From: Octopus vulgaris
Taxonomy: Eukaryota
Direction of reading: 5' to 3'
NCBI GenBank assembly: GCA_951406725.2
Contig: OX597814.1
Location: forward strand, 88,784,001-88,848,000
DNA length: 64,000 nt
A program made the position numbers and the translations under genes. Below the pieces are notes generated by a model. That model did not search any database, was not told where the DNA came from, and worked only from the letters and a program-made list of their open reading frames with translations. Numbering within the stretch: position 1 is the stretch's first letter; the number at the start of each line of letters is the position of its first letter. Of this stretch, positions 1-62,887 are shown piece by piece.

Positions 1-1915
1 CCCTTCAGTGAACGTCCTTCCTTATATCCGCCCACTATTTCGGGGAAAAATTATTCGGGCTCACCAAACTCAATGGAGACCTGCGCCCCATTGCGGTCGG
101 CTGCACCCTTCGCCGTCTCACTTTATTATTATTAGAGGAGGGATGAATTTCCCCCACTCAGCTAGGTGTAGGCACCAAATTTGGATGTGAAGTTGCTGCC
201 CACGCTACCAGAGCCTATTCCAACTTGCCCTCCTTGTCACCGAAGGTCATCTTCAAACTTGACCTAAAGAATGCCTTCAACTCCATCAGCGCGATGCTGT
301 CCTTAGCTCAGTAAGAGAGGAGGTCCCACAACTCTATCGTCTCTTTCGGTGACCAAATCATCACCTCCGTCTCAGGAGTCCAACAGAGCGACCCACTCAG
401 GCCCGCTCTGTTCGCACTGGGCATTGATGACATCACCAAAATGGGCGTCGAGCTACACCTCAACGTCAGGTATCTCGACGATGCTTGTTTGGAGGGTTCT
501 CCGGACAGGGTTTTCGGCATTACAAACATGATGGCTGGAGAGCTTGGTTGCAATTGCTGAAAAAATATTGAAGCTATCGAACCTCATCAAGGTTTCTTCA
601 TACTTAGGAATTACCTCTCGATCCCTAAGTTTCTATATTTACTCAGAGTCAGCTCATCTTACCGATTCCCATCGTGCCTCCAACGCTTCGACAACCTAAT
701 CTTTGAGAGACTCGAATGCTTAGTCAGTGTCAGACTCTCTCCAACGTCCCACGACCAGGTTGCATTGCCCAAGCGATTTTGAGGTCTTGGTCTTCGTAAG
801 TGTTCGTCCCTCTCTCTCTCTCCTGTTACCTTTCTTCCACCCACACCTGCTCCACCCTAGTGAGCAACATCCTCTCCTCTCCAACATAGACCAGTCCCAA
901 CAGGGAGATGGATGAAACTCTCCAACACTGGAGGAAATTGGGCTTGTCTGCTCCTGAGAAGGTGGAGGACTGTTGGTGTCAGATAGCTTGGGACAACATA
1001 ATTTCGAAGGCCACCTTTGACTTCCTCTTAATCCAGTCAGACAAGTTTTCAAGTGCCAAATACTCAGGTGACTAGAATGATGCTATCGCTGTGGCTAATG
1101 TTGGTGGCCTACTCAGCTTGGACGAACTTCGTGCCTCCATTGCCCTCAGAGTGGGAGCTGACGTATGTACAGGTTTGATCTGTCGTTATGGCAGGCTCCT
1201 CGACTTCACAGGCCTCTATGGCCTTACTTACCGCCTGAATGCTGGTCGCTTCACGCATCATACGGAGTTGAACCTGATACTCATGAGGAACCTGGCCCGA
1301 GCAAACATCCCCTCCATCTTGGAACCGTCTGGATTGTCCAGATGTGATGGGAAGAGACCTGGCGACCTCACACTGTGCCCCTGGTCGCAAGGCAGATGCT
1401 TTGTGTGGGATGTCATAGTTAGCAACTCTTTAGCTTCTTCTCACATCCTGGATGCTGTGGTCAGGGCGAGATCCACAGCTTCTGCGGCCGAATGGAGCAA
1501 AATCCTGAAATACCACGATCTGTCGGCCAGCTACATTTTCCATCCTTTGGCGTTCGAGACGTTTGGTGGGGTCGGACTATTAACTGCGAGATTCCTGTCT
1601 TCACTGGCAACTCGCCTTGCAGAGGTAACTGATGAGGCTCGTGAGGGCGCTTGTCTGTTCCAGAGCATCAGCCTCGCCATCACCCGCAGCAACGCTGTCA
1701 GCGTGCTGGCGTGTCTCAATAGCCATTAGAGAAGTTTCTCAGCGCCCCAACTTTTCAACCCAAGGTGACGAATTGTTTTAGTTTTTTTCTTTTTTCTCTT
1801 CTTTCTTTTTCTCTTTTTTAAAAGTTTTTTTTTTCAATTGTGTTCTCTGTTTTGTCCAGTTTTCTTGCTTGATTTTTTAAAAACGGTAAACACTGTGAAG
1901 GCAATAAAAGGAATA
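1..1915 (+). mobile_element. Decayed CRE-clade non-LTR retrotransposon (RT + restriction-like endonuclease), 5' part outside the window
   Basis: RT motifs are readable across frameshifts: NGDLRPIAVGCTLRRL (~72-119), QLGVG, KLDLKNAFNSI, GVQQSDPL and YLDD (471-482). The C-terminal ORF 1091-1729 has a decayed zinc knuckle and the REL-type motif DGKRPGDLTLCPWSQGRCFVWDV...PLAFETFGG. A T-rich 3' UTR ends in GGCAATAAAAGG. Confidence 0.88.
1091..1729 (+). pseudogene. Remnant ORF: zinc knuckle and REL endonuclease domain of the CRE-like element
   Basis: The 212 aa ORF from the track contains KRPGDLTLCPW..G...WDV and PLAFET.G. The upstream RT part is broken by stops and frameshifts. Confidence 0.8.
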
Positions 1916-2812: not shown

Positions 2813-4062
2813 AATTGGGAAATCTTTTGTTTTGATATGAGTATATGGTATAAGTTTTTCTTTCTATTAGGAAAATAATTTGAATACATGTTGAGCAATA
2901 TTGATTTATTTTAATTTTCTTTTTAATTAGTTCAAGTTAAACAGAGTGGTGTATTGACGGTATTCATTTTGTATCGACAAAGAATAATCAAAAACTTTGA
3001 ACTTTCGTTTCTTTTTTGTAGTTTTAGTGGTCAAAAAACATACAAACGTTACGCAATTATTTTCTTTCTTACCAATAAATTTTAAATCTTGTGATTTCCT
3101 AAAAAAACAAATTTGGCTTTTTGACAAACGTGTTACATAAGCTCTGAATACCTATATAGTAAGAGAGGGTTGGAATGTATTGAGATGTTCATACTTCATC
3201 GATGAATTAGCGGCGTGAGAAACTGAAAACTGAAACAATATCAAAGATCTCGGGAACTTACTATCTAAACGATTATTTAGTAAATAAAGGTCTGTTTTTC
3301 TCAGACAGCAGGTGCAGTCTATTGGATGAACTTTCATATATTTATACTACTTAATCCCGTCCAGAAGGATGATACTTAGAGATTAAGCAAGATTCGAAAT
3401 CCGCTCATATGGCGAATGACGTGCAGTAGGCAGGTTTAGTCCGTAACTTGCACTTATTTCATTTGGTTTAGAAATTGCACAAACATCAAGGAATCTCATT
3501 TTGCTTCTAAAGTATTGTACAAATATAATATATTAAGTATTTCGAAATCATCTTTCTCTTCAGATACCAAGAATTGAATCACAAAAATAATTTCAATATT
3601 ACAGATATTGCTGCAGAATTAACGACTTTATTAAATTCATTTTACTAATGTTTAGAATAATCACAAAGCTACAAGCTGTGTTGCTAACGAAATATTGCAA
3701 TGATCCTCTACTGTTCTATTGTTTTTTACCAATCGATCACTCTAATATTGTGCAATTTTGATTTTATACATTGCCACAGAGCCATAAATTTATAGAGAAG
3801 ACGTATTTCATTAAATCGTTCTCAAAATAGTATTGTTAATTATTTTATCAACACTTAAGAAATAAAAGGCAAAACTGAGTCTGGTGGGATGTGAATCCCA
3901 CACACATAAATTCCACACGTACTTCGTCGTCTCTGCCACCTCTTAATTATTATATTATGCAATATTATTGCCACAAAAATAAATATCTTATTGAATTGAA
4001 ATACTATTGCATCTAATTTATCTTTTACTCTTTCCAAAGCTGGCAAATAAATACGAGTTATA

Positions 4063-6360: not shown

Positions 6361-6895
6361 ACACATAAGAGGCATCCCAATTCCACTGGTAATATTTCTG
6401 ATTACCCTTTGATATTATTAATTATTGATAATTTTTTTCTGGATAATTTTCGAATTGAAAAGACGGCATTTCTATTTACTGCCGACAAGGAGCTGCGCTT
6501 GTGTGGTAGATTTGAAAAATTAGAATGCATAAGCACGGGCATATAGTGGATTGCCTCGTGTATATATATTTAATCTAAGGTGTACCTGCTGAAGAAGACT
6601 TCGCCTAGCAAATTATTTCATTTGCTAAAATAAGTCTGAAACCATTGGTCCAGGAATTACATGGTTAAATGTTTTTATTTTTCATTCCCTTCGAAATTTT
6701 ATCTCTAATAGTGGTTTGGAATTTAACTGTTCTCTCTAGCGTGCAAGGAGTCCTTATGATGGATGCCTCTTATGTATTTAAATGTACACTGTATTTATAT
6801 GAGTAATATATAGTCTATTGACTAAACTTTTACACGCTAGGCCACTGGTAATGGAAATTTCTAGTATTTCTGATTACCCTTTGATATAATTTATT
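6360..6895 (+). mobile_element. Penelope-like/retrozyme-like non-coding element with partial tandem structure and a hammerhead ribozyme
   Basis: The 3' end CCACTGGTAAT...TTTCTGATTACCCTTTGATAT occurs at ~6383-6416 and again at ~6842-6886. A short 5' inverted segment ACATAAGAGGCATCC pairs with GGATGCCTCTTATGT (~6761). It contains a hammerhead motif, is flanked by microsatellites, and has a relative at 62626-62890. Confidence 0.65.
6585..6654 (+). ncRNA. Minimal type I hammerhead ribozyme
   Basis: Stem I CCTG/CAGG; core CTGAAGA (6589-6595); stem II AGACTT/AAGTCT, extended by TAGCAAAT/ATTTGCTA; GAAA (6638-6641); stem III ACC-ATT-GGT. Predicted cleavage after GUC (6650). Confidence 0.8.
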
Positions 6896-7120: not shown

Positions 7121-7125
<5 letters not shown>

Positions 7126-7390
7126 TATAGAAGAACCAGCATGTAGCAATTCGACAACGATATACTTAAATCATACCATATAGAAAAAAAATAAAGATAC
7201 GATAAAACATTTACCTAGAACTAAATAAAGTACGAAATAATAAATAAATAGTATATAATTAGTAACTAGAATTACTACATGGTGGTTCTTCTCTAATTTA
7301 TATACATATATTACATATTGTGAAATTTGATTTAGTATTATTAAATTGAATTTTTCCCTGTAAGTTTGGAATCATATTCCCTAATATTAT
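7121..7390 (+). mobile_element. Fold-back + tail element (family T1, Penelope-like remnant)
   Basis: Inverted arms 7121-7151 / 7269-7300, then the tail TTTTCCCTGTAAGTTTGGA...CCCTAATATT shared with the copies at 32745, 33299, 36029 and 39198. Inserted in (TA)n. Confidence 0.6.
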
Positions 7391-7863
7391 TATTATGTAT
7401 GTATATGTATGTATATATGTAAATGTATGTGTATATGTATATATATGTGTCTATATATATGTATATATAAGTATATATCTTTCTATATATAATAATGATA
7501 ATGTGTGTGTGTCCGTTTGAATCCCTAAAACTTGAGAACTACACAACCAATTTAATTCAAATTTTACACCTGCCTTACTTAGGGTCCGTGTAGTGTCATA
7601 GGTCAAAAGATTTTAAAACTTGTTCCCTAGTGCGATCCCAGAACAATATCATATCTCCTCCACTATTCCAGTATTACGTGTCAAAAATGAAACAATAACA
7701 TCTCTCTATTGTAATGTAGGATATTTTCACTTTAATACTGAAACTATTAAAGTGAAACTATTATCTCACATATATACAGGCTTACATACATATATACAGG
7801 CATCCATATATACAATATATATATATATATATATACACATCTGCACAAATGTTTATATATAGA

Positions 7864-17977: not shown

Positions 17978-19799
17978 TATGTTTGAGAAATAAGATATCA
18001 TTTGCTATCATCTCGTTTCATTTCATCACATCTTCATAGAATAATAATGAAATCCGTGTATATCCCCAAAAGTAAGGAGCAGAGCTTTCACTATCCATAT
18101 TATATGCAAGTCGTTTGAAATAGTTGAATTTGTATTGCATTTATCATTAGGATTGTACAATTTAGGGAAGGAGCATAGCCGCTTGCGTTAATCCCCAAAT
18201 ATAAATAGTACTTTTTTATTGACCCTAGAAGGGTGTAAAAGAAACTCGACTCTATTGGGTTTTGGACCCATAGAGAAGAATAGTGCAGGATATTTAATCC
18301 TGCACCACTTCAGTGCCTACCCTAATTATAATCACGCTAATCCTCATCATAATAAACATGATCATTAGTTAGGAGTTGTGCTCCAGAACTAGCGCGTGAC
18401 TCACAATCATCAAGTAGAAAATAAAATTAACAAATCTGTTTTTCTTTTCGTCAATTTTCAGTCAAACTTAAAATGTCTTATTTTCTTCTATTAAAAGCAA
18501 ATTATGGATAATTCTATAAGATTCAAAGAGCGCCATGCTAGAGGGGAATGGTCAGATTAGAAGTCATCGAAAGCCCAGACAAGATTAACAGATATTTGAA
18601 ATAATGAGAAAATACTGAAACAGCGAATGGAAAAGTAAAGTACAGAATTATGTTACGGCTATCATTGGCTGTTTATGCTATAACTTTAACTGAATCTTAT
18701 TGCTAGAGTAGACCCAATTCCTCAAATGTAAGCATTTCTTTGCTTATACACAGAAGGGTTTCACTTGCACTTAAGTTACCGAAATTTTGCTTTTGTATTT
18801 GTTTTGCAAGATTCTTGATGAGAAATGCGAAGTCGACCTCCGTATTTTACTCAACCAGATTATTAGACTACCAGAAAGAATACATCCTATTAAAGAGGAG
18901 AATCCTTCTCTTTCGTGAAGGGGAATTTTGGTCTAGGTGAACCATGTTTGGCGAGTTCGGTGTAATTATGGGGTTCTCGGACATCACGTAGATCACAACG
19001 TTGGAGTGTTGAAGTGTTTATGCATTACAAAGTCAAGGGGAACTTCTTTCACTTCGGAAGTGGACGACATTGGAGTGACACTCTATTTACAGACTCTGAA
19101 TTTCACCATCTGAACTCGAGAGACGGAGGAAAGGCTGTCGGGTCAAACTTTCTCCCTAGTTGCCCGAGGGGTTTTCTATGTCCACCAGTTCTCATCTTTT
19201 TTTGTCCATCACTGTAGAAGCCGTGCTGTAACCCTACTTTTAAATTTTCATTTTCTTTTGTTTTAGTCAGAGTTATATATGCGTGTGTGAGGGTGAGAGA
19301 AGGGAGATAGATAGATGGATACATAGATAGATAGTTACGTGTGTGTGTGTGTGTATCTATGTGTGCCTTTGTGTCTTTGTGTCTGTGCTTACCACTCATT
19401 ACCGCTGGACAACCTACGTTGGTTTGTTTACGTCCCCGTAACTTTAGCGGTTCGGTAAAAAAAAAACAGACCGACGGAATACGTAATAAACTTTTAAAAA
19501 ATAGGTACTGGGGGTTATTTGTTCGACTAAACCCTTCAAAGCAGAGCCCCAGCATGGCCGCAGTCCAATGAATGAAACGGGTGGGTGATAAAAGATGATT
19601 GGAAAGGATCACTCTCCATTGATAAAATTGTATGTGTGTGTGTGCGTACGCGTATTTGTGTATGTATGTGAATTTGCATAATTTTAAATTTACTCATTTA
19701 TACGTGTGCCCGAGTGCGTGTTTCTGTCTGGGTACTGTGCGAGTGCGTGTGTTTAAATCAATACAGAGAACGTAGTTTACGCTCACACACAAACAAACA

Positions 19800-20140
19800 A
19801 ACAGCTGCACGGGAGCGTATTTGCCGAGATAACTTGAGGTCAAGCGAATATTCAGCAATAGTTGATCTTCATAAAATAGACTGTATGAATTGCACTTGAA
19901 AAACAACTGATTGGAAAATTATCAAGTCAACAGGTTATGTCTAATTATGTTTTACACGTGGATCTCATACACACAGATCCACGTACAAACATACTCCAAC
20001 ATAACCTGTTAACTTGATAATTGTCCAATCAGTTGTTTTTCAAGTGCAATTCATACAGTCTAGTTTATGATCAACTATTGTTGAATATTTGCTTGACCTC
20101 AAGTTATCTCGGCAAATACTCATGCACATGTGCAACTGTT
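19800..20140. mobile_element. Long-TIR MITE / fold-back element
   Basis: ~140-bp imperfect inverted arms (TTGCCGAGATAACTTGAGGTCAAGC...CAGGTTATGT / ACATAACCTG...GCTTGACCTCAAGTTATCTCGGCAA) around a ~60-bp spacer. Confidence 0.8.
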
Positions 20141-20185
20141 TGTGTGTGGCGGGCATATGGCGTAGTGATCATAATAATAATGATG

Positions 20186-20240
<55 letters not shown>

Positions 20241-20297
20241 CAACAACATCGAAAAATACCTTAGGAATGAGAACCCAGATTCGAAAATTCCCCCAGG

Positions 20298-20333
20298 ACA
20301 CCTGATGAAGGCTGAAGGGTCTATCAGCCGAAA
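20298..20333 (+). ncRNA. Truncated hammerhead ribozyme motif
   Basis: CTGATGA-A-GGCTGA(8 nt)TCAGCC-GAAA is present, but stem III and the stem I 3' strand are missing. It lies in a short element following (AAT)n. Confidence 0.5.
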
Positions 20334-20659
20334 AGATGAGGACAAAACCAGTCAAAATGTAAATAATGTAAATAACCACCGCTACCTATTTTTTAAGGTT
20401 TACTGCGTATTCCATCGGTCTGTTTTTTTTTGCCGAACTGCTAAGTGATGAGGACGTAAACACACCAGCATCGGTTATCAAGAAGTATTTTTTTACTTCT
20501 ATTTTTTAGCGATATAGGTACTCATGTAGTACCTTTGTATATATATATGTACATATCTAATATTGTATGTATATATTTTATTAATTTGCCTGTACGGCTG
20601 ATAATTCGCTTACCACTCGTGATGGAATTTTAATGATACCATCCCTACATATATATATA

Positions 20660-21207
20660 AAGAGAAGCTACACAAAGAAAATCGTCTCAATGCAAAATAT
20701 CAGCTACTGGGAAAGACTGAAGGTATTAAACCTCTTCTCCCTAGAGCGGCGGCGGGAGAGATATGCGGTGATATACATCTGGAAAATCCTGGAGGGTCTT
20801 GTCCCAAACTTTGGCATTCAAAGTTACTCCAACCGCAGAACGGGGCGCCACTGCATGGTGCCAAGGATTCCAACATCACCATCAAAATACAGGTCCAGAT
20901 ACTGCAACAGCTTGGGTTTCAGAGGACCACAGCTCTTTAACATCCTCCCTAAATGCCTGAGAGACTTACATGGTGTGGATGTGGGTTTCTTTAAAACTAA
21001 ACTGGATCTCTTCTTGTCGGGGGTCCCAGATGAGCCTACCTCACGACAGGAGACGCGGATGCGGGCAGCAGCATCGAACTCCCTTGTTGATCAAGTGCCA
21101 CGTATCAGAGGTGGATTCACAAATTAGTGTAGCTCATTCAGAGGTGGTGCCCCAGCATGGCCGCGGCCTTCGGGCTAAAACATTTTTAAGGATTTAAGGA
21201 TTTAAGG
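20660..21207 (+). mobile_element. 5'-truncated CR1-group LINE 3' end
   Basis: ORF SYWERLKVLNLFSLERRRERYAVIYIWKILEGLVPN...FKTKLDLFL is the typical CR1-group ORF2 C-terminus. 3' stem-loop and (TTTAAGGA)n tail. Inserted in (TA)n. Confidence 0.85.
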
Positions 21208-24596: not shown

Positions 24597-24647
24597 AGCT
24601 TCCTGAAGATTTCTCTTGAATGAAACAGTACTAGTCCTGTAGAAGCT
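24597..24647 (+). ncRNA. Minimal type I hammerhead ribozyme
   Basis: Stem I AGCTTC/GAAGCT; CTGAAGA (24603-24609); short stem II TTC/GAA with a U-U closing mismatch; GAAA (24622-24625); stem III ACAG...CTGT within the near-palindrome ACAGTACTAGTCCTGT. Predicted cleavage after GUA (24641). AATAAA follows at 24658-24663. Confidence 0.72.
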
Positions 24648-24730
24648 CCTTCTATATAATAAATTAATTTTACTCTGCTATGTATTGAGTACCTTACTTA
24701 CTGTGGTTAACCCCGAATCAACCCGGGACC

Positions 24731-32686: not shown

Positions 32687-32744
<58 letters not shown>

Positions 32745-32746
<2 letters not shown>

Positions 32747-33168
32747 GGGAATATTATTCCGAACTTACAGGCATAAATTCAATTTAGTAATACTAAATCA
32801 AATTTCACAATATATAATATATGCATATAAATTAGAGAAGAACCACATGTAGCAATTCAACATTGAAATAACAATGATATAATTAAATCATACCATATAT
32901 AAAAAAACTAAATATACGATAAAACATATAACATATACCAATAATTTAGTAAAGTACAAAATAATAAATAAATAGTAAATAAATAGTATACAATATCCTA
33001 TTATATACTGTTTATATACTATTATAGACTATTTATTAATTATTTTGTAATTTACTTAATTATTGGTATATGTTTTATCGTATATTTAATTTTTTTCTAT
33101 ATGGTATGATTTAATTATATCATTGTTATTTCATTGTTGAATTGCTACATGGTGGTTCTTCTATAATT

Positions 33169-33172
<4 letters not shown>
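32745..33172 (-). mobile_element. Fold-back + tail element (family T1)
   Basis: The T1 tail is in reverse orientation at 32745-32810. ~160-bp inverted arms at ~32827-32990 / ~33010-33172. Lies between (AAT)n and (CA)n. Confidence 0.7.
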
Positions 33173-33234
<62 letters not shown>

Positions 33235-33260
33235 AATACATACATACATACACACACATA

Positions 33261-33299
<39 letters not shown>

Positions 33300-33454
33300 T
33301 TAGGGAGTATATCCAAACTTACAGGGAAAAATTAGATTTAGGATTAAATCAAATTTCACTGTATAAATATAAATTAAATTAGAGATAAAACCACTATTAG
33401 GCAACTCAAACAGTGATAGACATAAAGCAATATATATATATATATATATATATA

Positions 33455-35980: not shown

Positions 35981-36027
<47 letters not shown>

Positions 36028-36028
36028 A

Positions 36029-36300
36029 TATTATATTAAATTAGAGACAAAACCACTATTAGGCAAATCAAACAATGAAAAACTTAAGCCAATACATATG
36101 ATTAATTTATATTATTTAAATATATAACAAAATTTAATATAAATTAATCATATGTATTGGCTTAAGTTTTTCATTGTTTGATTTGCCTAATAGTGGTTTT
36201 GTCTCTAATTTAATATAATATAATATTTTACTATAAAATTGGATTCAATCCTAAATCTGATTTTTCCCTGTAAGTTTGGATTTATTCCCTAATATTTATT
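36029..36300 (+). mobile_element. Fold-back + tail element (family T1)
   Basis: Essentially perfect ~85-bp arms around a ~20-nt spacer, then the T1 tail. Inserted in (TA)n. Confidence 0.75.
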
Positions 36301-37194
36301 ATTATATATATATATTATATAAGATCCAAGGATAGAGGCGTAGGAAGAAAGTTAGCTTCAAGTAATCTGTAGTAAATATAAAAAGCAAATTTCAGTGACG
36401 ATATTGAGATGGAAGGGTCTAGATATTTTCGTATTGAAGTACGATAAACTGAAAAAAGTTCTTTATATTTCACAGCAGGCGACCAGGTTTGCCGGGTATG
36501 CGAATAAGAATACAAAAGTTAAGGAATGGAGTCGATAACATCCGGGCTACATAAGTTTCATATCGAGAGGAACTTCGGAAGTGGTAAATATCCAAGCGAG
36601 GTGTATACTGCAGATTACTCCTCAGGCCAAGAATATCTTGATTAAATGGAAGTTTACATTCGCAAGGAGGTACATGTTAACATACACACACGCGCGCGCG
36701 CGCGCAATCAATCATTATGAATACGTACGGCGATCCTTCGATATTAGTTTACAGAGTGTTAGTATGAAGAGACGACGTCATTCACCTCGTTTCACCAAAA
36801 CCTCTTTATTTGTCATGAGGGATGGCAGCATGGCTGAATGACGTCATGTACCAATACCGAAAGACTTTATTACATAAAGTGTTATAATAGATTTATATAG
36901 GTGCAGGCATGGCTGTATGGTAAGAAGCTTGCTTCCTATACACGTGGTTCCGGGTTCAGTTCCACTATGTGGTACTTTGAGCAAGTGTCTTCTACTGTGT
37001 TTGACCCACACCACCTCTTGACAACCGGTGTTGGTTATTTACGTTCCTGTAACTGAGCAGTTCGGCATAAGAAACCAATAAGTACCGAGCATTAGAACAA
37101 ATTAAAAATAAGAAGAATTGGGGTCGATTTCTTCGACTAAAACTTTAAGGCGGTGCCTTAGTATGGCTGCATTCTAATGACTGAAACACTCACT

Positions 37195-38660: not shown

Positions 38661-38892
38661 TTATTTCTTTATTGCCCACAAGGGGCTAAACATAGAGGGG
38701 ACAAACAAGGACAGACAAAGGGATTGAGTCAATTACATCAGCCCCAGTGCGTAACTGGTACTTAATTTATCGACCCCGAAAGGATGAAAGGCAAAGTCGA
38801 CCTCGGCGGAATTTGAACTCAGAACGTAACGGCAGACGAAATACGGCTACGCATTTCGCCCGGTGTGCTAACGTTTCTGCCAGCTTGCCGCC
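38661..38892 (-). mobile_element. S1 SINE, young full-length copy
   Basis: Intact core and tail. Confidence 0.85.
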
Positions 38893-39099
38893 TTAGTGTC
38901 GTATAATAATGTCAGATGAAAGATCAATTTCTAAACGTCTCTAGGGTTATAAGAAACAGCTACATTCTTGGGTCTGAGAATGTTTGCTTTGAACTCCACT
39001 TTGGAACTCTACATTGAATTATCCTCCAGGTCATGTTAGATAGCTTTTTATTATATTTTTGCCATATTTTTTATAACATCTGTATACACACACACACAC

Positions 39100-39130
<31 letters not shown>

Positions 39131-39131
39131 C

Positions 39132-39197
<66 letters not shown>

Positions 39198-39207
<10 letters not shown>

Positions 39208-39489
39208 TTCGAGACAAAACCACTATTTTGCAAACTTCATAAATTAAAACAGATTAGGAGATCGAAAATCCACCTGACGAATGTCATTGAAGACATGAAA
39301 CGATTGTAGTGGCGGTTTATTTCTTTATATTAAACATTTTATTTATTGATTAAGTCTTTCCTTGTTTGTTTTGCAAAATAGTGGTTTTGTCTCGAATTAA
39401 TATTATATAATATTTTACTATAAAATTGGATTTAATCCTAAATCTGATTTTTCCCTGTAAATTTGGATTTGATCCCTAATATTTATTAT
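39198..39489 (+). mobile_element. Fold-back + tail element (family T1) carrying a hammerhead ribozyme
   Basis: Arms 39198-39234 / 39370-39409, T1 tail, hammerhead in the spacer. Inserted in (TA)n. Confidence 0.75.
39270..39312 (+). ncRNA. Minimal type I hammerhead ribozyme
   Basis: Stem I CCAC/GTGG; CTGACGA (39274-39280); stem II ATGTC/GACAT; GAAA (39297-39300); minimal stem III AC-GATT-GT. Predicted cleavage after GUA (39308). Confidence 0.82.
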
Positions 39490-39501
39490 TATTATATATA
39501 T

Positions 39502-39562
<61 letters not shown>

Positions 39563-39849
39563 TGTATACAAAGAGAGAGAAAGAGAGAGATAGCAATAAT
39601 AAGAATAATTCTTTGATAGAATTTATAAATATTCTAATGCATCGCTGCGCGCGTTTCCCTGAAAAGATGAAGCCATGAAGATGATCTGTCCGATGCGCTC
39701 GGATATTACGGACTGCACTGTAGTCGTCCCAGAAACACGGACTGTGATCTTAAGAGACATGTGACTTTTGGAAACGTGCGTAACGATACATTAAAATATA
39801 TATAGATTCCATCCAAGGATTATTGTTATTAATGCTATATTTATCCTAA

Positions 39850-40620
39850 GGCGGCGAGGTGGCAGAAACGTTAGCACGCCGGGCGAAATGCGTAGCCGTA
39901 TTTCGTCTGCCGTTACGTTCAGAGTTCAAATTCCGACGAGGTCGACTTTGCCTTTCATCCTTTCGGGTTCGATTAAATAAGTACCAGTTACGTACTGGGG
40001 TCGATGTAATCGACTTAATCTCTTTGTCTGTCCTTGTTTGTCCTCTCTGTGTTTAGCCCCTAGTGAGTAGTAAAGAAATAGGTATTTCGTCTGCCGTTAC
40101 GTTCTGAGTTCAAATTCCGCCGTGGTCGACTTTGCCTTTCATCCTTTCGGGATCGATTAAATAAGTACCAGTTACACACTGGGATCGATATAATCGACTT
40201 AATACGTTTGTCTGTCCTTGTTTGTCCCCACTGTGTGTAGCCCCTTGTGGGTAGTAAAGAAATAGGTATTTCGTCTGTTGTTACGTTCTGAGTTCAAATT
40301 CCGCCGTGGTCGACTTTGCCTTTCATCCTTTCGGGATCGATTAAATAAGTACCAGTTACGCACTGGGGTCGATATAATCGACTTAATACGTTTGTCTGTC
40401 CTTGTTTGTCCCCACTGTGTGTATCCCTTTGTGGGTAGTAAAGAAATAGGTATTTCGTCTGTCGTTACGTTCTGAGTTCAAATTCCGCCAAGGTTGACTT
40501 TGCCTTTCATCCTTTCGGAGTCGATAAATTAAGTACCAGCGAAACACTGGGGTCGATGTAATCGACTATCCCCCTCCCCCCAAATCTCAGGACTTGTGCC
40601 TATAATAGAAAGGATTATTA
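39850..40620 (+). mobile_element. Tandem tetramer of S1 SINE units
   Basis: Units 39850-40080, 40081-40264, 40265-40448 and 40449-40620, flanked by the 13-bp direct repeat TATATTTATCCTA (39836-39848 / 40622-40634). Confidence 0.85.
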
Positions 40621-51612: not shown

Positions 51613-51688
51613 GTCCCTGTAACGCAGTGGATAGCGCGCTGGACCTCTTCTAATCCAGAGGTCATGAGTTCGAATCCCACCGGGAATG
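51613..51688 (+). pseudogene. tRNA-Arg(TCT)-like pseudogene, retroposed with an S1 SINE tail
   Basis: GTCCCTGTAACGCAGTGGATAGCGCGCTGGAC[CTC]TTCTAATCCAGAGGTCATGAGTTCGAATCCCACCGGGAATG resembles tRNA-Arg(UCU). It has a 3-nt insertion in the anticodon loop and stem mismatches, and is flanked by a TSD. Confidence 0.75.
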
Positions 51689-54239: not shown

Positions 54240-54296
<57 letters not shown>

Positions 54297-54302
<6 letters not shown>

Positions 54303-54672
54303 GCACATATGGGTATAGGACGTTACAAACCGGTCAAACAACATGAAGTATGTAAACAACGAGAAATATGGAAAACAGGACGAGTAAACACAAACAAATG
54401 ACCCTTCATCAGTTGTTGGCTGTCTATCAACTCCTCATTTCGAGCATTCAACGACAATATGAGTCATCAAAGACAGTTGCTAGAATTTATGGGAGCAACT
54501 GCCTTTGAAGACTCAAACTGCCATTGAATGCTCGAAATGAGGAGTTGATAGACAGCCAACAACTGATGAAGGGTCATTTGTTTGTGTTTACTTATCCTGT
54601 TTTCCATATTTCTCGTTGTTTACATACTTCATGTTGTTTGACCGGTTGGTAACGTCCTATACCCATATGTGC

Positions 54673-54678
<6 letters not shown>
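54297..54678. repeat. Long fold-back element (~185-bp arms, 12-nt spacer) in (TA)n
   Basis: 54297-54481 is the reverse complement of 54494-54678 with few mismatches. Confidence 0.9.
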
Positions 54679-54723
<45 letters not shown>

Positions 54724-62625: not shown

Positions 62626-62887
62626 AATACAGTGTATATTTAAACACATAAGGAATCCACTCGTGGGATTCCTCATGCTAGAAAGAACAGCTACGTTCTA
62701 TAACCCTCATTTTGTGGTTATAGAACCTAGCTGTTCTTTCTAGTATGATGAATTCCATGAGTGGATTCCTTATGTGTTTAAATGTACACTGTATTTTATG
62801 ACTAATGCATAGTCTTTGGACTGAATTTTTACATGCTAGGCCACTGGAAGTGAAAATTTCTATTAATTTCCATTTCCCTTCGATATG

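What the first reader, a model, noticed from the sequence alone, without database searches (positions are those of the whole stretch)
39198..39489. Hammerhead sits in the spacer of a fold-back element, linking the ribozyme to the T1 family
Seen: a clean minimal hammerhead lies between ~37-bp inverted arms, followed by the tail shared with 7121, 32745, 33299 and 36029. Inference: the T1 hairpins are 5'-truncated, 5'-inverted copies of a hammerhead-bearing retroelement rather than MITEs. This copy reached far enough upstream to include the ribozyme.
Basis: partly seen in the sequence, partly recalled or inferred. Interest (0 to 1): 0.7.

Follow-up and report, generated by a model that had tools for sequence, protein, structure and literature searches.

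The report
Truncated Penelope-like retroelement end with hammerhead
A hammerhead-ribozyme motif sits inside a short hairpin-shaped repeat that is most likely the truncated 3' end of a Penelope-like retrotransposon, in the "inverted copy plus one-sided tail" layout already described for this class, so it is real but ordinary.

Summary
Observation confirmed. 40-bp perfect inverted arms (39195-39234 / 39370-39409) enclose a minimal type I hammerhead motif (39270-39312; 0 of 20,000 spacer shuffles match). An ~80-nt tail follows on one side only, and both flanks are (TA)n. The spacer is not unique. Diverged contigs from four public runs carry it and chain it to arm and tail, depth rises toward the tail, and two contigs continue upstream of the fold-back junction with other sequence. 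Arms vary between copies (40, 88, ~170 bp, none). This argues against a MITE and matches the published Penelope-like element (PLE) layout.

Corrections: the left arm is a tail-less inverted duplicate of the 3' end, not an L1-type inversion. Copies 7121 and 32745 are a second subfamily with different upstream sequence and no hammerhead core within ~170 nt; one shared variant hints that their hairpin was copied whole. No PLE reading frame could be linked: none was found in the window and no genome is held. Cleavage is untested and predicted only for a dimer. The scan reported the same pattern earlier in two other genomes (shark-type, per those notes). New member of a known kind; low interest.

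The parts
39100..39194 (.). (TA)n-type microsatellite, left flank (likely the insertion target; hides any target-site duplication)
   Evidence: sequence
39195..39234 (-). Inverted copy of the element's 3' region, 40 bp, without the tail
   Evidence: perfect complement of 39370-39409. Loose (TA)n ends behind 39409 in 15 X1 contigs and 1 X10 contig indicate the same tail-less end in other copies
39235..39489 (+). Direct copy, inferred 5'-truncated at about 39235
   Evidence: two X9 contigs continue before 39234 with other sequence, and depth rises toward the 3' end
39270..39312 (+). Minimal type I hammerhead motif; predicted cleavage after 39308; predicted to work as a dimer through palindromic helix III (39300-39307)
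   Evidence: same column layout as the Hydra-clade PLE motifs in PMC8557442 File S2
39370..39409 (+). Right arm (the part of the direct copy that is duplicated in inverted form)
39410..39489 (+). One-sided tail, about 80 nt, with a predicted stem-loop at 39422-39451, ending in CCCTAATATT(TTA)n
39490..39570 (.). (TA)n/(TATG)n microsatellite, right flank
   Evidence: sequence
36027..36305 (+). Sister copy, same subfamily: 88-bp perfect arms, 20-nt loop, tail; its match begins about 14 nt downstream of the hammerhead
33290..33445 (-). Sister copy: solo direct 3' end with tail, no inverted arm, in (TA)n
7121..7396 (+). Second subfamily: inverted copy (~145 nt) longer than the direct copy's arm part (~40 nt), then tail
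32740..33175 (-). Second subfamily: ~170-nt arms (86% identical), short loop, tail; no hammerhead core

Best explanation
The locus is a (TA)n-flanked head-to-head pair, a 255-nt direct copy with a hammerhead motif and an ~80-nt tail plus a 40-nt inverted tail-less copy of its 3' part, and it is most likely a single dead-on-arrival insertion of a Penelope-like retrotransposon. Inferred mechanism: the element's RT/GIY-YIG protein nicks both strands of the (TA)n target, and each 3' end primes reverse transcription on element RNA. One starts at the RNA 3' end (with tail); the other starts ~80 nt further in (without tail). Both stop early, here after 255 and 40 nt, and the truncated ends are joined, which gives the hairpin. 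The hammerhead is the usual PLE 3'-repeat motif, kept because the direct copy happened to be long enough. It is predicted to cleave only as a dimer and probably not in a lone transcript of this locus. Shown: the anatomy, the multi-copy spacer, its linkage to arm and tail, the variable arm lengths. Inferred: PLE identity, two-strand priming, cleavage.
For: (a) The motif is beyond chance and has the layout of tabulated PLE motifs, e.g. [quoted passage not shown] It begins about 240 nt from the 3' end when measured as in that table, whose sense-strand Hydra-clade rows run from about 87 to 425 nt, apart from one motif at the 5' end. (b) Co-folding two copies gives the double-hammerhead as the minimum-energy structure (-21.8 kcal/mol), while the monomer's active fold (-5.6) is above its MFE (-8.4). 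(c) The one substitution listed inside the motif in reads, 39302 G>A (52% of X1 depth, 16-42% in the other three runs), makes helix III a perfect palindrome. The one listed insertion lies in loop II. (d) Spacer multi-copy and linked: X1 record 1 (39262-39368, 7 other letters, 4 gaps), X8 record 17, X9 records 26 and 27, then X1 record 4 across arm and tail. (e) X1 summed depth is 14k at 39236-45, 74k at the core and 1.1M in the tail; all 4 runs rise toward the 3' end. (f) Fixed tail-less outer end (loose (TA)n behind 39409) with variable inner ends: arms of 40, 88, ~170 and 0 bp, and an inverted copy longer than the direct one at 7121. (g) Each locus's arms match each other (40/40, 88/88), while 39k and 36k differ at 4 of 38 columns in both arms alike. 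(h) Literature: inverted 5'-truncated copy, one-sided tail and (TA)n bias (PMC8557442, passages); both target strands cleaved and extended, with two RT start sites bounding the tail (PMC11167929, parts 1-2 of 4).
Against: No RT or GIY-YIG sequence is linked: Pfam found none in 94 of the 175 non-simple ORFs, no genome is held, and the contigs are short. No single contig spans the stretch. Depth dips at 39326-45 and loose ends at 39322 and 39348 show that many hammerhead-bearing or tail-bearing contigs use another linker. Summed depth is not copy number. The upstream continuation rests on 2 contigs with 0.65 agreement. The tail (~80 nt) is about twice the 30-40 bp in the papers read. 39302 G>A lies in a CpG and could be deamination, and with 12 substitution sites listed over 297 nt their absence from the core is not significant. 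Rfam did not recognise the motif. Tail stem-loop covariation is not significant (131 of 500 shuffles). In the second subfamily both inverted arms share TCTATAA against TCTCTAA in both direct arms, which independent priming events would not be expected to give.
Confidence: 0.82

Rival explanations
1. A non-autonomous, PLE-mobilised short element (retrozyme- or SINE-like). Its RNA carries the hammerhead and tail but no ORF upstream, and in at least one subfamily the whole hairpin is the unit that is copied.
For: No ORF link was found. An arm-specific variant is shared by 7121 and 32745. The tail has very high depth. Animal retrozymes are proposed to be non-autonomous PLE derivatives (10.64898/2026.07.22.740005, part 1 of 5).
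Against: No tandem array of hammerhead units here. In 3 of 4 runs no listed piece crosses the 39234/39235 junction, and X8 has zero depth at 39236-45; for X1 only 8 of 1461 pieces were shown. Arms of 39k and 36k track their own locus. The 'unit' signal is one nucleotide in two loci.
Confidence: 0.1
2. A DNA element: a fold-back MITE, or a DINE-1/Helentron-type element with a subterminal inverted repeat and a 3' stem-loop, that happens to carry a hammerhead-like insert.
For: The outer end of the left arm is fixed. TA flanks are compatible with a TA duplication. The right repeat is subterminal and followed by a stem-loop, as in DINE-1 (PMC2374699, passages).
Against: DINE-1 subTIRs are a fixed 13 bp, whereas these arms are 40-170 bp and variable. 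One copy has no arm. Depth is strongly 3'-biased and the sequence continues upstream of the junction in other copies. The motif is of the PLE minimal type.
Confidence: 0.05
3. The direct copy is a plain PLE 3' end, and the inverted arm arose later by host DNA repair or replication fold-back at a microsatellite, not during retrotransposition.
For: The inner end of the right arm lies in the palindrome TTTTGCAAAA (39369-39378), and the flanks are self-complementary (TA)n.
Against: The arm stops at the same tail boundary in 4 of 4 hairpin copies and in 16 contigs. At 7121 the inverted copy holds sequence that the direct copy lacks.
Confidence: 0.03

Closest known systems
[quoted passage not shown] 2021, PMC8557442; Arkhipova et al. 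2013, PMC3846280)
   Same: 5'-truncated direct copy with an adjacent inverted 5'-truncated copy head-to-head, tail on one end only, hammerhead near the 3' end, (TA)n target that hides any duplication.
   Different: Tail about 80 nt rather than 30-40 bp; no ORF or tandem pLTR at this locus; clade not assignable.
Minimal hammerheads of metazoan PLEs (Cervera and De la Pena 2014, PMC4209133); Hydra-clade motifs including Hydra-1_Obim (PMC8557442 File S2)
   Same: Type I, 4-bp stem I, short stem II, palindromic helix III region, predicted dimer dependence, within a few hundred nt of the 3' end, (TA)n preference.
   Different: The sequence differs from Hydra-1_Obim, whose printed 3' end and motif do not match. 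Exact-motif searches of that supplement found no match, though wrapped FASTA lines could hide one. Position 10.1 is not the usual G-C pair.
Poseidon PAc of Anolis, studied in vitro (Frangieh et al. 2024, PMC11167929)
   Same: Two RT start sites that define the tail, both strands cleaved and extended, AT-rich target, a stem-loop at the start region; this supplies the mechanism inferred here.
   Different: In PAc the hammerhead overlaps the ORF start and the stem-loop is AC-rich; no such ORF start was identified here, and the stem-loop is AU-rich.
Non-LTR retrozymes (10.64898/2026.07.22.740005)
   Same: Non-coding, type I hammerhead, PLE-related.
   Different: Retrozymes are defined by tandem hammerhead-bearing units; this is a single motif inside a fold-back.
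DINE-1 (PMC2374699)
   Same: Non-coding, 3' repeat subterminal and followed by a stem-loop.
   Different: Fixed 13-bp subTIRs, TT insertion and central repeats in DINE-1; variable long arms, 3' bias and a hammerhead here.

Membership tests
Penelope-like element (EN+) | PLE-type RT plus GIY-YIG endonuclease ORF upstream of the 3' repeat | not testable with these tools
   No genome held; no RT or GIY-YIG Pfam hit in 94 of 175 window ORFs; contigs too short; prokaryote and viral collections gave only chance matches
Penelope-like element (EN+) | Hammerhead motif on the sense strand near the 3' end | tested here: met
   compared with the table. Met for this copy, not for 7121/32745
Penelope-like element (EN+) | Variable 5' truncation with a fixed 3' end | tested here: met
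   5 of 5 window copies end at CCCTA+(TTA)n and begin at different points; 3'-rising depth in 4 of 4 runs
Penelope-like element (EN+) | Adjacent inverted 5'-truncated copy, with the tail at one end only | tested here: met
   4 of 5 copies have the inverted tail-less copy; 1 is solo. Tail ~80 nt versus 30-40 bp described
Penelope-like element (EN+) | Partial-tandem arrangement forming direct pLTRs | not testable with these tools
   needs full-length copies
Hammerhead ribozyme, type I minimal | Core CUGANGA, GAAA and UH with stems I and II | tested here: met
   Rfam models did not hit
Hammerhead ribozyme, type I minimal | Self-cleavage | not testable with these tools
   only folding: dimer MFE is the active form; stems I and II at 0-8% pair probability in the three locus transcripts folded
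MITE (TIR DNA transposon derivative) | Inverted repeats at both termini and uniform size | tested here: not met
   ~80-nt conserved tail outside the right arm; arms of 40, 88, ~170 and 0 bp
MITE (TIR DNA transposon derivative) | Superfamily-specific target-site duplication | tested here: inconclusive
   flanks are (TA)n, so a TA duplication can be neither shown nor excluded
DINE-1 / Helentron-type element | Fixed short (13-bp) subTIRs and central tandem repeats | tested here: not met
   arms long and variable, no central repeat seen against the features
Non-LTR retrozyme | Tandem units each with a hammerhead | tested here: not met
   single motif, no tandem unit at this locus

The most novel reading that the evidence does not exclude
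Some of these PLE fold-backs have become self-propagating non-coding hairpin elements. The whole inverted-arm-plus-tail unit is re-copied by the PLE enzyme, with an unusually long (~80-nt) tail whose conserved stem-loop is the recognition and priming signal and no need for the hammerhead. The result would be a very abundant MITE mimic of retroelement origin and a large source of double-stranded RNA in this genome.
Probability: 0.12. Interest if true: 0.45.

Novelty: new member of a known kind. Interest (0 to 1): 0.17.

Why it matters
Mostly for annotation: these abundant hairpins would be called MITEs or unknown repeats, and the hammerhead-bearing copy assigns them to the Penelope class. The fixed tail-less end with independently varying inner ends is a genomic footprint that fits the two-start-site, two-strand priming seen in vitro for one PLE, so a genome-wide count of junctions would test that model cheaply. 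Nothing here overturns current knowledge.

Tried and rejected
- Rfam: no hammerhead hit; the two weak hits (SNORD50, CRISPR-DR31, E>1) are chance.
- Pattern scans for relatives with long flanks: viral contigs gave 22 and 14 loci, metagenome 0 and 2, genome contigs 0. None extended meaningfully beyond the pattern, so all were dropped as chance.
- Expression: no RNA holder is on record. X9 is only guessed to be RNA, and contigs cannot show strand or cleavage, so nothing is concluded on transcription.
- Hydra-1_Obim as the parent: rejected, different motif and 3' end.
- Exact motifs in the PMC8557442 supplement: the long motifs found nothing, and the shorter 8-letter ones gave scattered hits, none of those shown continuing like this element.
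- ORF start at the hammerhead: one frame translated, with stops; the other two frames were not run as calls.
- Covariation of the tail stem-loop: 58 of 60 cells pair and 1 pair changes on both sides, but 131 of 500 shuffles do as well; kept only as a hint.
- Descriptor hit at 3563(-): weak G-U-rich stems, no repeat match in the window; not counted.
- Earlier-findings look-ups by sequence, place and a second word set were empty.
- L1-type twin-priming inversion (recalled from my own knowledge): rejected, because the inverted part overlaps the direct copy's 3' region.

Full report
OBSERVATION. On the + strand the locus reads: (TA)n; a 40-bp arm (39195-39234); a 135-nt spacer; the perfect complement of the arm (39370-39409); an ~80-nt tail ending in CCCTAATATT(TTA)n; then (TA)n again. 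The fold-back is far beyond chance (z = -9.6, 0 of 200 shuffles). The spacer holds a minimal type I hammerhead: CCAC, CTGACGA, ATGTC-ATTGAA-GACAT, GAAA, CGATTG, TA, GTGG (39270-39312). My descriptor, written after seeing the motif, matched 0 of 20,000 shuffles of the spacer and gave 1 hit in 150 shuffled windows. In the real window it gave this hit and a weak one at 3563(-), and it missed a good motif at 24597, so it is not exhaustive. Rfam did not detect the motif. The tail is shared with all four named copies at 70-88%.

THE RIBOZYME MOTIF. As a monomer the active fold (-5.6 kcal/mol) lies above the minimum-energy fold (-8.4). Two copies co-fold with the double-hammerhead as their minimum (-21.8), through the self-complementary helix III. 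In three transcripts of the locus folded alone, stems I and II have 0-8% pair probability. This fits the dimer-dependent, weakly active minimal hammerheads of animal PLEs (PMC4209133; I read parts 1-2 of 4). The column layout equals that of the Hydra-clade motifs in File S2 of PMC8557442 (supplement part 2 of 59). The distance from the 3' end (~240 nt measured as in that table) lies within the table's range of about 87-425 nt, leaving aside one motif at an element's 5' end. In reads, the one substitution listed inside the motif makes helix III a perfect palindrome and the one insertion lies in loop II. The substitution lies in a CpG, and only 12 substitution sites were listed over 297 nt, so this is suggestive only. 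Cleavage was not tested.

IS THE SPACER UNIQUE? No. 20 of 24 listed runs, from 9 studies and 4 organism labels, hold the stretch or part of it. I laid 4 of the 24 (X1, X9, X8, X10; 1461, 50, 283 and 69 contigs). Contigs that differ from the window cover the hammerhead and linker (X1 record 1, X8 record 17, X9 record 26), linker and arm (X9 record 27), and arm and tail (X1 record 4). No single piece spans everything, and only 32 of 1869 pieces were shown. Summed depth, which is not copy number, rises toward the tail in all four runs (X1: 14k, 74k, 1.1M). It dips at 39326-45, where loose ends show other linkers. Two X9 contigs run on before 39234 with sequence other than the arm (agreement 0.65), and no listed piece crosses the junction. 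Loose (TA)n ends behind 39409 in 15 X1 contigs and 1 X10 contig mark the same tail-less end in other copies.

THE FIVE WINDOW COPIES. All five end at the same 3' point. 36029 has 88-bp perfect arms and a 20-nt loop. 33299 has no inverted arm. 32745 has ~170-nt arms. At 7121 the inverted copy is longer than the direct one. The arms of 39k and 36k are identical within each locus but differ between loci at 4 of 38 columns. Copies 7121 and 32745 form a second subfamily: their upstream sequence does not align to the spacer and has no hammerhead core, although it reaches further from the arm end than the motif does in this copy. Both of their inverted arms carry TCTATAA where both direct arms carry TCTCTAA. 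This single shared difference hints that their hairpin was copied as a unit, which independent priming does not explain. All five tails are predicted to form the same stem-loop on the sense strand, with G-U pairs. 58 of 60 cells pair, but the covariation is not significant.

MECHANISM (inferred). Published PLE insertions are often 5'-truncated, with an inverted 5'-truncated copy at the 5' end, a 30-40-bp tail at one end and a bias for (TA)n (PMC8557442, passages; PMC3846280, passages; PMC8969392, passages). In vitro, a Poseidon protein cleaves and extends both target strands and starts reverse transcription at two sites that bound the tail; its hammerhead is not needed for insertion (PMC11167929, parts 1-2 of 4). 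The geometry here fits that. The left flank continues into antisense element sequence from the tail-less start, the right flank's lower strand does so from the tail end, and the two short cDNAs meet head-to-head. Because the two overlap in template, this is not the non-overlapping L1 twin-priming inversion (recalled). PMC3846280 proposes self-priming on an antisense template as another route to such inverted junctions; I cannot exclude it for the near-perfect hairpins.

WHAT IS NOT SHOWN. There is no link to a PLE reading frame. No genome is held. Pfam found no RT or GIY-YIG in 94 of 175 non-simple ORFs. The prokaryote and viral collections gave only chance matches. A target-site duplication cannot be read in (TA)n. 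The host looks like an octopus to me from a recalled SINE motif; no call names it.

KNOWN OR NEW. The anatomy is known. Four paper searches listed no description of this particular family. Hydra-1_Obim is a different element. An octopus annotation lists 190 Penelope-like families covering 6.83% of that genome (PMC13282606, passages and supplement search). I could not see its sequences, or Repbase and Dfam, so the family may already be catalogued. Also seen: 10.64898/2026.07.22.740005 (part 1 of 5), PMC2374699 (passages), PMC8967140 and PMC6962438 (passages). Two earlier notes of this scan report the same pattern in other genomes; they are unchecked AI notes and are not counted as evidence. The window also holds hammerhead-like ends of other families, so such motifs are common here.

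VERDICT. Real, most likely a truncated PLE end (0.82), new member of a known kind, interest 0.17. The points worth a genome-wide look are the long tail and the possible whole-hairpin propagation in the second subfamily.

Noticed in passing
window 24597-24648 (+): A second, unrelated type I hammerhead (AGCTTC/GAAGCT stem I, CTGAAGA, GAAA, helix III ACAG/CTGT) about 85 nt before a (TA)n run; probably the 3' end of another PLE family.
   Followed up: partly
window 20296-20335 (+): Broken hammerhead-like motif (CTGATGA, stem II AGGCTG/CAGCC, GAAA, no stem I partner) just after an (AAT)n run.
   Followed up: no
window 54261-54714: Near-perfect fold-back (221-nt arms including TA, 96%, 12-nt loop) in (TA)n with a CTGATGA half core in each arm; no tail seen; possibly another PLE-derived hairpin.
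   Followed up: partly
window 19793-20147 and 62626-62795 (partial copy at 6711-6848): Further hairpin-shaped repeats of other families.
   Followed up: no
window 7121-7396 and 32740-33175: Both inverted arms share TCTATAA against TCTCTAA in both direct arms: possible propagation of the hairpin as a unit.
   Followed up: partly
window 39332, 39352, 39353: A>G differences in one contig each (all at depth 13.9, probably the same contig) of run X9, which is only guessed to be RNA; could be A-to-I editing or a diverged copy.
   Followed up: no
window 38662-38896 and 39846-40080: Two oppositely oriented copies (91%) of a SINE-like repeat bracket the locus; more copies follow at 40082 onward.
   Followed up: no
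window 33150-33445: The solo copy 33299 and the hairpin 32745 lie about 110 nt apart in one microsatellite tract, suggesting repeated insertion into the same target.
   Followed up: no
window 51613-51688 (+): tRNA-like sequence, Rfam 35.6 bits; perhaps a SINE head.
   Followed up: no
window 1076-1729 (+) and 20585-21127 (+): ORFs of 217 and 180 aa that look to me (recall) like C-terminal fragments of non-LTR retrotransposon proteins; no Pfam hit.
   Followed up: partly
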